A stretch of DNA of 64,000 nt from Alphaproteobacteria bacterium. Lineage in GTDB: Bacteria; Pseudomonadota; Alphaproteobacteria; CAAHEQ01; UBA3637. Below are positions 11,696-12,052 of this stretch, in pieces; the first letter of the stretch is position 1, and the number at the start of each line of letters is the position of its first letter. Location of the stretch: NCBI GenBank assembly GCA_045118155.1, contig JBGUXS010000014.1, positions 18,630-82,629 of the forward strand, in the 5' to 3' direction. Under the pieces are notes generated by a model. That model worked only from the letters and a program-made list of their open reading frames with translations. It was not told the DNA's origin and did no database searches. Made by a program: the position numbers and the translations under genes.

Positions 11696-11857
11696 AGTTA
11701 GTCTCCTTCTATATAGAATATTGCAACACCTAAAATATAGAATAGTTTTTTTTTAAGTGCAACACCTTTTTTTATAAAAAGTAAAATTTATTTTTGGGAT
11801 TACTTTAATGAAAAATGGATTGTTTTCGTTATCATTTTTTAGAAGAGATAAAGTATC

Positions 11858-11886
11858 TTGACAAAGTTGAGAAAATAGGATATAAC
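11858..11886 (+). promoter_or_regulatory. sigma70 promoter for leader peptide and leuA-like gene (TTGACA-17-TATAAC)
   Basis: Consensus -35 at 11858-11863, -10 at 11881-11886. Confidence 0.6.
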
Positions 11887-11907
11887 GGGGGTATTAAAGG
11901 AATCAAG

Positions 11908-11964
11908 ATGACACATTTTATGGCAACGCTACAACTACTACTACGAGGGAACCTAAAGTCCTGA
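11908..11964 (+). CDS. Leu-codon-rich leader peptide MTHFMATLQLLLRGNLKS (attenuation leader)
   Basis: SD AAGGA 6 nt upstream; 5 of 18 codons are CUA Leu incl. three consecutive; followed by intrinsic terminator 28 nt before leuA-like start. Confidence 0.55.
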   Translation: MTHFMATLQLLLRGNLKS

Positions 11965-11999
11965 CGGGGTAGTTTATACTTGCATTTTTTTAAAGTAAA

Positions 12000-12025
12000 T
12001 CACCCACGCCAGGGTGATTTTTTTT
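12000..12025 (+). terminator. attenuator terminator hairpin (TCACCC-ACGCCA-GGGTGA + T8) upstream of leuA-like gene
   Basis: 6-7 bp GC-rich stem followed by eight Ts; located within 5' UTR. Confidence 0.65.
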
Positions 12026-12052
12026 ATGTTTTTTAAAAAAGGAATTTAATCA

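What the first reader, a model, noticed from the sequence alone, without database searches (positions are those of the whole stretch)
11850..12052. Leucine-codon leader peptide plus terminator: classic attenuator upstream of a LeuA-like gene
A consensus promoter (TTGACA-17-TATAAC) is followed by a good SD and an 18-codon ORF, MTHFMATLQLLLRGNLKS. Five of its codons are CUA (Leu) and three are consecutive. Just downstream is a GC-rich hairpin with a T8 tract (12000-12025), 28 nt before the start codon of an isopropylmalate-synthase-like gene. The Leu-codon segment AACTAC (11932-11937) can pair with GTAGTT (11969-11974), giving a pause (1:2) structure. This is the architecture of ribosome-mediated leu attenuation, which is well known in gammaproteobacteria but much rarer in alphaproteobacteria. 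I could not find a convincing antiterminator by eye.
Basis: partly seen in the sequence, partly recalled or inferred. Interest (0 to 1): 0.55.

Follow-up and report, generated by a model that had tools for sequence, protein, structure and literature searches.

The report
Leucine-codon leader-peptide transcription attenuator
A short upstream reading frame packed with a rare leucine codon, followed by mutually exclusive RNA hairpins and a terminator, most likely switches on a divergent isopropylmalate-synthase-like gene when leucine runs short; this is a textbook type of control in a new place, not a new mechanism.

Summary
Window 11858-12025 holds a promoter, a Shine-Dalgarno site, an 18-codon ORF (MTHFMATLQLLLRGNLKS) and an intrinsic terminator, 27 nt before a 462-aa gene. 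All five Leu codons are CUA, which makes up only 6.4% of Leu codons in this window (P about 1e-6).

It excludes both the terminator (-12.3) and the hairpin that contains the Leu codons (-12.5).

The only diverged relative (L001) has a downstream protein 73% identical, with fourfold-degenerate sites only 43% identical. Even so, the leader core 11923-11975 is 53/53 identical. Start codon, SD, frame and stop are kept, and every substitution in the helices keeps pairing.

Caveats:
- The evidence is computational and rests on two lineages.
- At equilibrium the antiterminator wins only if the leader ribosome-binding site is also occupied.
- The downstream gene is not a canonical LeuA: no regulatory domain, below all NCBIfam cut-offs, TLRDGNQ changed to TAREAGQ, and no leuBCD in 64 kb.

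Verdict: a ribosome-mediated Leu(CUA) attenuator, a new member of a known kind, absent from Rfam. Interest is modest.

The parts
11858..11886 (+). Sigma-70-type promoter: -35 TTGACA (11858-63), 17-nt spacer, -10 TATAAC (11881-86). Inferred transcription start near 11893.
   Evidence: Sequence. The -35 is invariant. The -10 sits at the same position in all relatives but drifts: CATAAT, TATAAT, TATGAT, and TACAAT with a TG extension in L001. The start site is inferred, not shown.
11896..11901 (+). Shine-Dalgarno site of the leader ORF (AAAGGA), 6 nt before the AUG.
   Evidence: AAAGG is invariant in all 8 sequences, while the flanking bases between the -10 and the AUG are only 11/21 identical to L001.
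11908..11964 (+). Leader ORF of 18 codons plus UGA: MTHFMATLQLLLRGNLKS. Regulatory CUA codons at 11929-31, 11935-43 (three in a row) and 11953-55.
   Evidence: Start, frame and stop are invariant. Codons 2, 3 and 5 vary non-synonymously (T/I, H/Q, M/I), so the N-terminal peptide sequence is not selected. The second ATG (11920) is ATT in L004 and L015. The in-frame upstream ATG 11815 (49-aa ORF) is closed by a TGA in L001.
11937..11950 (+). Region 1: 5' arm of the 1:2 (anti-antiterminator/pause) hairpin. It overlaps the CUA run.
   Evidence: Fold: 11937-42/11968-73, 11944-45/11965-66 and 11947-50/11959-62, -12.5 kcal/mol. All 12 pairs are invariant.
11959..11981 (+). Region 2: pairs either with region 1 or with region 3 (antiterminator 5' arm). 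It contains the leader stop codon 11962-64.
11993..12014 (+). Region 3: antiterminator 3' arm. It covers the terminator's 5' arm, its loop and the first three G of its 3' arm.
   Evidence: Antiterminator of 19 pairs, -17.3 kcal/mol; the part that can form before the terminator 3' arm is made (up to 12009) is -9.8. It is 100% paired in 7 distinct sequences. The four L001 substitutions all keep pairing: G.U to G-C, U-A to U.G, A-U to G.U, C-G to U.G.
11997..12025 (+). Intrinsic terminator (regions 3:4): stem 11997-12005/12012-20, loop ACGCCA, U8 tract 12018-25.
   Evidence: -12.3 kcal/mol. One compensatory U-A to C-G change in L001.
11893..11919 (+). 5' segment (leader RBS, AUG and first codons) that can pair with the spacer 11974-11996. 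This would close the whole leader and hide the leader RBS.
   Evidence: Duplex of -10.3 kcal/mol, reached by at most 1 of 1000 dinucleotide shuffles. L001 uses different pairs (ACACAA:UUGUGU, AAAAAAUG:CAUUUUUU), -10.1 kcal/mol, reached by about 6% of shuffles. A functional role is inferred.
12053..13441 (+). Regulated gene: a 462-aa divergent isopropylmalate-synthase-family (HMGL-like, DRE-TIM) enzyme with no LeuA regulatory domain. Its own SD, AAGGA, is at 12038-42.
   Evidence: Pfam finds PF00682 only. Best NCBIfam match is LeuA2 of Leptospira, 221 bits against a cut-off of 500. Best PDB match is 4ov4, Leptospira IPMS, E 2.8e-46. Leu content is 4.5% against a window median of 9.8%, with 0 of 21 Leu codons being CUN.

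Best explanation
This is a ribosome-mediated (leader-peptide) transcription attenuator that reads the supply of charged tRNA-Leu decoding the rare codon CUA.

- Transcription and translation: transcription starts near 11893, and a ribosome translates the 18-codon leader.
- Leu plentiful: the ribosome runs to the UGA at 11962-64. There its footprint (to about 11975) covers region 2, so the terminator 11997-12025 forms and a leader RNA of roughly 130 nt is released.
- No translation: region 1 pairs with region 2, and the leader RBS segment pairs with the spacer. The terminator forms again.
- Leu-tRNA(CUA) scarce: the ribosome stalls on the three consecutive CUA codons (11935-43) and covers region 1. 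Region 2 (11959-81) then pairs with region 3 (11993-12014) before the terminator's 3' arm is made. RNA polymerase reads through into the IPMS-like gene at 12053.

Shown here: all sequence parts, the three alternative helices and their energies, their conservation, and the rare-codon bias.

Inferred: the transcription start, ribosome footprints, the kinetic order of folding, Leu dependence, and that the enzyme acts in leucine synthesis.
For: Architecture and codon bias:
- All parts are at the stated positions.
- Five of five Leu codons are CUA, against 6.4% genomic use, P about 1e-6. The CUA triplet run is unique in the window.

Alternative structures:
- Free RNA folds as 1:2 plus terminator.
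- With region 1 masked, 11955-12024 folds as the antiterminator at -17.3 kcal/mol, against -12.3 for the terminator alone.
- Only 28 of 2000 shuffles of 11951-11996 reproduce this switch behaviour.
- Partition-function states: P(terminator) is 1.00 with no ribosome and 1.00 with a ribosome at the stop codon. P(antiterminator) is 0.80 when the stalled ribosome and the RBS segment are both masked.
- L001 shows the same pattern.

Conservation:
- The downstream proteins are 73% identical and fourfold sites 43% identical, yet 11923-11975 is 53/53 identical.
- SD, AUG, frame and stop are invariant, while codons 2, 3 and 5 change the amino acid.
- Four one-sided changes keep the antiterminator paired, and one compensatory change keeps the terminator paired.

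Context:
- No + strand gene ends upstream of this terminator. The neighbour 11345-11695 is on the minus strand, and the EPSP synthase gene has its own terminator at 11301-11330. A terminator inside a 5' leader therefore only makes sense as a regulator or as the end of a small RNA.
- The regulated protein is Leu-poor (4.5%; 3.3% in the relative) and avoids CUN codons (0 of 21). That fits a gene meant to be translated during Leu shortage.
- The Salmonella leu leader also uses rare CUA codons, and replacing them with CUG reduces sensitivity (Carter et al. 1986, as described in PMC1183508).
Against: - There is no experimental evidence of any kind.
- Only two diverged lineages carry the element. 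The helices show one compensatory change and four wobble-type changes, so covariation support is thin.
- The thermodynamic margin is small. With the terminator forced, 11951-12024 is only 1.0 kcal/mol worse than the antiterminator fold.
- If only the stalled ribosome is masked, the equilibrium still favours the terminator (P 0.98), because the free RBS segment pairs with the spacer. Read-through therefore needs either a second ribosome on the RBS or kinetic preference for the local 2:3 helix.
- Stalling at the fifth CUA (11953) is predicted to favour termination, not read-through.
- The regulated gene is not a verified LeuA, and no leuB, leuC, leuD or ilv gene lies in the 64-kb window.
- Complete identity over 53 nt exceeds what the attenuator model obviously requires. 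For example, GCAACG 11923-28 has no assigned role.
Confidence: 0.8

Rival explanations
1. The conserved 53-nt core is a ligand- or protein-binding RNA (a riboswitch-like element or the target of an RNA-binding regulator) that controls the same terminator. On this view the ORF is incidental.
For: Every nucleotide of 11923-11975 is identical between lineages whose fourfold-degenerate sites are 43% identical. That is more than peptide coding needs. A hairpin followed by a terminator with an alternative pairing is also the layout of an OFF riboswitch.
Against: - No Rfam family matches, even at E up to 10.
- The hairpin is small and not unusually stable (z = -0.86).
- SD, AUG, frame and stop are all conserved while neighbouring bases drift.
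- The exclusive use of one rare Leu codon (P about 1e-6) has no explanation under this model.
Confidence: 0.07
2. Promoter to terminator is an independent small-RNA or small-protein gene whose product acts in trans. Read-through into the next gene is constitutive leakage, not regulation.
For: The unit has its own promoter and terminator and would yield an RNA of roughly 130 nt. Its core is extremely conserved. In Sinorhizobium meliloti, the released trp attenuator RNA (rnTrpL) and its peptide (peTrpL) act in trans (PMC6614838, PMC7298713).
Against: - The element is always found directly upstream of the same rare gene, in both lineages, while the linker to that gene is not conserved (14/25 identical plus indels).
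- No separate promoter for the downstream gene was found in the 27-nt gap.
- The antiterminator geometry and the Leu-codon placement would be unexplained coincidences.
- A trans role would add to attenuation rather than replace it, as in the S. meliloti case.
Confidence: 0.08
3. Chance: an AT-rich intergenic region that happens to contain a short ORF with a CTA trinucleotide repeat next to an ordinary terminator.
For: Promoter-like and terminator-like matches in this region are not more frequent than in shuffles overall. Short ORFs are common.
Against: The conservation pattern, the codon statistics, the switch statistics and the absence of any upstream + strand gene needing this terminator all argue against chance.
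Confidence: 0.02

Closest known systems
Enterobacterial leu operon leader (leuL; Rfam RF00512 Leu_leader) of E. coli and Salmonella
   Same: Both are leader-peptide transcription attenuators with a run of consecutive Leu codons that uses the rare CUA codon (Carter et al. 1986 via PMC1183508). Both have 1:2, 2:3 and 3:4 alternative helices and sit upstream of an isopropylmalate-synthase-family gene.
   Different: - There is no sequence or structure match to the Rfam model.
- This peptide has 18 residues rather than 28 (the latter from memory).
- All five Leu codons are CUA, including two isolated ones.
- It controls a single, divergent, regulatory-domain-less enzyme gene rather than leuABCD.
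- The host is an uncultured alphaproteobacterium.
Sinorhizobium meliloti trpL attenuator upstream of trpE(G)
   Same: It is a documented ribosome-dependent transcription attenuator in Alphaproteobacteria, with a short leader peptide (14 aa) in front of a single first-step biosynthetic gene (PMC6614838).
   Different: It senses Trp codons, not Leu. Its mRNA is leaderless, whereas this one has an SD. Trans-acting roles of the RNA and peptide are shown there and are only a possibility here.
Actinobacterial LEU element upstream of leuA (Seliverstov et al. 2005, PMC1262725)
   Same: An upstream ORF with a run of Leu codons, whose codon run takes part in RNA pairing, lies in front of leuA.
   Different: The LEU element is a pseudoknot that pairs the Leu codons with the leuA Shine-Dalgarno site (translational control) and lacks a clear terminator. 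Here there is a canonical terminator, and the main gene's SD is not involved.
Leptospira LeuA2 / L. biflexa IPMS (PDB 4ov4), for the regulated protein
   Same: Best NCBIfam hit (221 bits) and best PDB hit (E 2.8e-46). The TIM-barrel catalytic domain plus subdomains I and II align over residues 5-411. The motifs HxHNDxG, GERAGN, EHFGD and SGxH are kept.
   Different: - Identity to any homologue outside its own two-member clade is only about 33-38%.
- The score is far below the equivalog cut-off (500).
- TLRDGNQ is changed to TAREAGQ (the residue I recall from the LeuA literature, not checked here, to be the metal-ligand Asp is Glu), and SGIHQDG to SGTHGRS.
- There are two small insertions.
- There is no PF08502 regulatory domain.

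Membership tests
Ribosome-mediated (leader-peptide) transcription attenuator | A short ORF with its own ribosome-binding site and start codon in the 5' leader, downstream of a promoter | tested here: met
   Promoter 11858-86, SD 11896-11901, ATG 11908. SD, start, frame and stop are invariant in 8 sequences from two lineages.
Ribosome-mediated (leader-peptide) transcription attenuator | A cluster of regulatory codons for one amino acid inside the ORF | tested here: met
   Five CUA codons, three of them consecutive. CUA is 6.4% of Leu codons in the window, P about 1e-6.
Ribosome-mediated (leader-peptide) transcription attenuator | An intrinsic terminator between the ORF and the structural gene | tested here: met
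   9-bp stem plus U8, -12.3 kcal/mol. One compensatory change in L001.
Ribosome-mediated (leader-peptide) transcription attenuator | An antiterminator mutually exclusive with the terminator, and an upstream helix (1:2) mutually exclusive with the antiterminator and overlapping the regulatory codons | tested here: met
   2:3 = 11959-81/11993-12014, -17.3 kcal/mol. 1:2 = 11937-50/11959-73, -12.5 kcal/mol. Switch behaviour appears in 1.4% of shuffles. All pairs are kept in relatives. At equilibrium the antiterminator dominates only when the RBS segment is also masked.
Ribosome-mediated (leader-peptide) transcription attenuator | Geometry: a ribosome at the stop codon covers region 2, while a ribosome at the regulatory codons covers region 1 but not region 2 | tested here: met
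   The stop codon 11962-64 lies inside region 2. The last consecutive CUA ends at 11943, 16 nt before region 2. This assumes a standard footprint of about 15 nt 3' of the P site, modelled.
Ribosome-mediated (leader-peptide) transcription attenuator | Amino-acid-dependent read-through in vivo or in vitro | not testable with these tools
   This needs reporter or transcript-mapping experiments.
Rfam RF00512 Leu_leader (enterobacterial) | A match to the family covariance model | tested here: not met
   No hit at the gathering threshold in the window, and none at E up to 10 in 11600-12300.
Known riboswitches and T-boxes (Rfam) | A match to any curated cis-regulatory RNA model | tested here: not met
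   Searches gave only chance-level matches (best E 0.32, to an insect element).
2-isopropylmalate synthase LeuA (regulated gene) | HMGL-like (DRE-TIM) catalytic domain with the metal and substrate motifs | tested here: inconclusive
   PF00682 scores 124 bits. HxH, GERAGN and EHFGD are kept, but LRDG(N/E)Q is AREAGQ and SGIHQDG is SGTHGRS in both members of the clade.
2-isopropylmalate synthase LeuA (regulated gene) | A score above the NCBIfam equivalog cut-offs | tested here: not met
   The best score is 221.5 bits against a cut-off of 500 (LeuA2 of Leptospira). All other models are also far below their cut-offs.
2-isopropylmalate synthase LeuA (regulated gene) | A C-terminal Leu-binding regulatory domain (PF08502 LeuA_dimer) | tested here: not met
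   Absent. Some bona fide short LeuA paralogues also lack it, so this does not exclude IPMS activity.
2-isopropylmalate synthase LeuA (regulated gene) | Genomic association with leuB, leuC and leuD | tested here: not met
   None among the ORFs scanned across the 64-kb window; the scanned ORFs run to about 57 kb, and several ORFs, including those beyond 57 kb, were not scanned. The rest of the genome could not be examined.

The most novel reading that the evidence does not exclude
The 53-nt block of complete nucleotide identity exceeds what attenuation alone obviously requires. One reading is that the terminated leader RNA of roughly 130 nt, and possibly its 18-aa peptide, also acts in trans, as rnTrpL and peTrpL do in Sinorhizobium. 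On this reading the attenuator and its Leu-poor, CUN-free, divergent IPMS-like enzyme (always next to an ankyrin-repeat gene) would form a leucine-starvation response module in a host-associated alphaproteobacterium, rather than an ordinary biosynthetic switch.
Probability: 0.12. Interest if true: 0.55.

Novelty: new member of a known kind. Interest (0 to 1): 0.3.

Why it matters
- It adds a well-formed, Rfam-unlisted Leu attenuator from an uncultured alphaproteobacterial lineage. It also shows convergent use of the rare CUA codon as the sensing codon, as in Salmonella.
- Its most practical value is as a functional clue. A Leu-specific attenuator in front of an orphan, highly divergent IPMS-family enzyme (one relative among 5.8 billion proteins) suggests that the enzyme works in leucine metabolism. 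It also suggests that transcriptional attenuation substitutes for the missing feedback-inhibition domain.
- It does not change what is known about attenuation mechanisms.

Tried and rejected
- Rfam at the gathering threshold on the whole window, and at E up to 10 on 11600-12300: no leader, riboswitch or T-box.
- By eye I compared the core with guanidine-II/III, preQ1, fluoride and ZTP consensus sequences recalled from memory. The ACGA and ACGG tetranucleotides are not in hairpin loops, so nothing fits.
- DNA pattern scan of GTDB species representatives for the leader: no match.
- Protein-based scan of the same collection: only distant LeuA homologues at 33-36% identity, so the source species or its gene is not among the readable representatives.
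- Degenerate leader pattern in JGI metagenomes: only L001 again, plus a strain-level copy. The motif is therefore not a widespread RNA.
- Synteny in relatives with ThrRS 79-89% identical: different neighbourhoods and no copy of the gene or leader.
- The 49-aa in-frame extension from ATG 11815, which was called as a gene on contig L013, is rejected. It overlaps the promoter, has no SD, and is closed by an in-frame TGA in L001.
- The second ATG (11920) is rejected as the start, because it is ATT in two strains.
- My first shuffle test used too strict a definition of the terminator, so I redid it.
- The Vitreschak et al. 2004 survey of proteobacterial attenuators is not held in the library. Whether Leu attenuators upstream of leuA were already catalogued in Alphaproteobacteria could not be checked.

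Full report
**1. What is in the sequence**

- Promoter: TTGACA (11858-63), 17 nt, TATAAC (11881-86).
- SD AAAGGA (11896-11901), then ATG at 11908.
- An 18-codon ORF, MTHFMATLQLLLRGNLKS, ending in TGA at 11962-64. All five Leu codons are CUA (11929, 11935, 11938, 11941, 11953).
- A hairpin AAAUCACCC-ACGCCA-GGGUGAUUU (11997-12020) running into a U8 tract (12018-25). The terminator scan also reports it.
- The next gene starts at 12053.

Two small corrections apply. AACTAC is at 11933-38, not 11932-37. The -10 hexamer of this strain lacks the conserved last T, which is why the promoter scan skipped it. The same position reads CATAAT, TATAAT or TATGAT in other strains and TACAAT, with a TG extension, in the diverged relative.

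No + strand gene ends upstream of this terminator. The neighbour at 11345-11695 is divergent (DUF2934), and the EPSP synthase gene has its own terminator at 11301-30. A terminator placed 27 nt before a start codon therefore needs a regulatory explanation.

**2. More than chance**

In 59 long ORFs of the window, CTA is 116 of 1819 Leu codons, or 6.4%. Five of five gives P about 1e-6, and CTACTACTA occurs only once in 64 kb on both strands. The Salmonella leu leader uses rare CUA codons in the same way, and replacing them with CUG lowers sensitivity (Carter et al. 1986, as summarised in PMC1183508).

**3. The alternative structures**

The free leader (11893-12030) folds into a hairpin joining the CUA run to GGGGUAGU, plus the terminator. 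The hairpin pairs are 11937-42/11968-73, 11944-45/11965-66 and 11947-50/11959-62. The whole fold is -32.6 kcal/mol, z = -2.8.

When the bases under a ribosome stalled at the first of the three consecutive CUA codons (A site 11935) are made unavailable, a different fold appears: 11959-11981 pairs with 11993-12014. The helices are UCCUG:CAGGG, CG:CG, GGGU:ACCC, GUU:AAU and UACUU:AAGUA, 19 pairs in all. This helix consumes the terminator's 5' arm, its loop and three G of its 3' arm, and it also uses region 2 of the first hairpin.

Energies:

| Structure | kcal/mol |
|---|---|
| 1:2 hairpin | -12.5 |
| Terminator | -12.3 |
| Antiterminator, full | -17.3 |
| Antiterminator, part that can form before the terminator 3' arm exists | -9.8 |

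The logic is therefore classical. Free RNA gives 1:2 plus 3:4 (-24.8 in sum), which beats 2:3. With region 1 masked, 2:3 beats 3:4. Shuffling 11951-11996 while keeping region 1 and the terminator reproduces this switch in 28 of 2000 trials.

The geometry also fits. The stop codon lies inside region 2, so a ribosome that finishes the peptide covers region 2. The last consecutive CUA ends 16 nt before region 2, so a stalled ribosome leaves region 2 free.

**4. A complication**

The leader's own RBS/AUG segment (11893-11919) can pair with the spacer 11974-11996. The duplex is -10.3 kcal/mol, reached by at most 1 of 1000 shuffles. The relative L001 has an equivalent helix built from different pairs, at -10.1 kcal/mol, reached by about 6% of shuffles.

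Partition-function calculations for the window leader give the following:

| State | P(terminator) | P(antiterminator) |
|---|---|---|
| No ribosome | 1.00 | 0.00 |
| Ribosome at the stop codon | 1.00 | 0.00 |
| Only the stalled ribosome masked | 0.98 | 0.02 |
| Stalled ribosome and RBS segment both masked | 0.19 | 0.80 |

L001 behaves the same way (0.38/0.60 in the last state).

Read-through therefore requires one of two things. Either a second ribosome sits on the RBS (it just fits behind a ribosome stalled at the second or third CUA), or the local 2:3 helix forms faster than the long-range one. Both are inferences. From memory, a similar RBS-sequestering pairing has been described for the E. 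coli trp leader. I regard this closing helix as probable but not established.

A further caveat is that the thermodynamic margin of the antiterminator over the best terminator-containing fold of 11951-12024 is only 1.0 kcal/mol.

**5. Relatives**

The downstream protein has one close relative among 5.8 billion sequences (P0002, 76% identity in the search table) plus strain-level copies. Everything else is at most 38% identical. I recovered seven further copies of the leader and aligned them.

Between the window and L001:
- The coding sequences are 73% identical in protein and 75% in DNA, and only 43% identical at fourfold-degenerate sites.
- In the leader, 11923-11975 is 53/53 identical, the ORF start region 14/15, the spacer 17/21 and the terminator 27/30.
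- The stretch from the -10 to the AUG is 11/21 identical, and the linker after the terminator is 14/25 with indels.

AAAGG, the AUG, the frame and the UGA are invariant. Codons 2, 3 and 5 change the amino acid (T/I, H/Q, M/I) with no synonymous change. This is expected if translation matters but the peptide sequence does not.

In L001, all four substitutions that fall in antiterminator pairs keep pairing, and the terminator shows one compensatory U-A to C-G change. This is supportive but thin, because it rests on one evolutionary comparison.

**6. What it is not**

- No Rfam family matches, including Leu_leader, T-box or any riboswitch, even at E up to 10.
- A degenerate pattern for the core found nothing else in GTDB representatives or in JGI metagenomes. 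It is a lineage-restricted element, not a widespread RNA motif.
- The 49-aa in-frame extension from ATG 11815, which was called as a gene on one contig, is not conserved in L001 and overlaps the promoter.

**7. The regulated gene and the organism**

The 462-aa product has only the HMGL-like domain.
- Its best curated match is Leptospira LeuA2, at 221 bits against a cut-off of 500.
- Its best solved relative is Leptospira biflexa IPMS, 4ov4, E 2.8e-46 over residues 5-411.
- It keeps HxHNDxG, GERAGN, EHFGD and SGxH. It has TAREAGQ in place of the family-invariant TLRDGNQ and SGTHGRS in place of SGIHQDG, as does its one relative.
- It lacks the PF08502 regulatory domain.

It is therefore a divergent IPMS-family enzyme of unproven substrate.

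Two features fit a gene meant to be made when leucine is short. Its Leu content is 4.5% (3.3% in the relative), against a window median of 9.8% and 6.2-10.3% in homologues. It also contains no CUN codon (0 of 21; 2 of 16 and no CUA in the relative).

None of the ORFs scanned across the window, which run to about 57 kb, encodes leuB, leuC, leuD or an ilv gene. Several ORFs, including those beyond 57 kb, were not scanned. The gene is monocistronic and overlaps a convergent ankyrin-repeat gene by 4 nt.

ThrRS places the organism among uncultured Alphaproteobacteria. Relatives with 79-89% identical ThrRS have different neighbourhoods without this gene.

**8. Comparison with what is known, and verdict**

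- Mechanistically this works like the enterobacterial leu leader, down to the rare CUA sensing codon. It is not a member of that Rfam family.
- Leader-peptide attenuation is already established in Alphaproteobacteria (S. meliloti trpL; PMC6614838), so the taxon is not a surprise.
- The actinobacterial LEU element differs: it is a pseudoknot acting on the SD, with no clear terminator (PMC1262725).
- I could not read the 2004 survey of proteobacterial attenuators, so I cannot say whether leuA attenuators in this class were already listed.

Verdict: a genuine Leu(CUA) leader-peptide transcription attenuator that is complete in its sequence parts. My confidence is about 0.8. It is a new member of a known kind and of modest interest.

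The residual oddity is the complete identity of 53 nt. This leaves some room (about 0.1) for a second, trans-acting role of the released leader RNA or peptide, as shown for rnTrpL and peTrpL (PMC6614838, PMC7298713).

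Noticed in passing
window 12053-13441: The regulated IPMS-like protein is strikingly Leu-poor: 4.5%, and 3.3% in its relative P0002, against a window median of 9.8% and 6.2-10.3% in LeuA homologues. It uses no CUN Leu codons (0 of 21). The only other scanned ORFs in the window with zero CUN are two short ORFs at 58295-59348, which I did not identify.
   Followed up: partly
window 13438-14472 (-) and L001 1799-2461 (+): In both lineages the gene next to the IPMS-like gene encodes an ankyrin-repeat protein. 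It is convergent and overlaps by 4 nt in the window, but lies on the same strand in L001. The recurring pairing with a typical host-interaction protein is unexplained.
   Followed up: partly
window 11711-11767: Two pairs of exact 10-nt direct repeats, ATATAGAATA (11711, 11735) and TGCAACACCT (11722, 11758), lie just upstream of the divergent DUF2934 gene (11345-11695, minus strand). They could be an operator or promoter element for that gene.
   Followed up: no
window 19043-21245: An EcoRI-type adenine methyltransferase gene and a GmrSD-N/HNH nuclease gene sit between ThrRS and the 135-aa gene. This pair is absent at the same place in strain contig L003, so it looks like a strain-specific defence islet. 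Conversely, the 511-aa gene that L003 has between the glycosyltransferase and ThrRS is missing from the window.
   Followed up: partly
window 11815-11964; L013 371-520: An in-frame upstream ATG gives a 49-aa ORF that a gene caller annotated on one metagenome contig. It overlaps the promoter and is not conserved in L001, so it is probably a mis-annotation of the leader peptide.
   Followed up: yes
window 11972-11982: G 11972, U 11981 and G 11982 match the elemental pause consensus (G-10, Y-1, G+1; recalled from memory), 8 nt after the 1:2 hairpin. They are conserved in L001. This may be the pause site that synchronises translation with transcription.
   Followed up: no
window 38756-39328; L019: Rubrerythrin is encoded in the window. 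Anaerobic ribonucleotide reductase and rubrerythrin are encoded in a relative, and flavodoxin-type genes in another. This suggests an anaerobic, possibly gut- or host-associated, alphaproteobacterial lineage.
   Followed up: no
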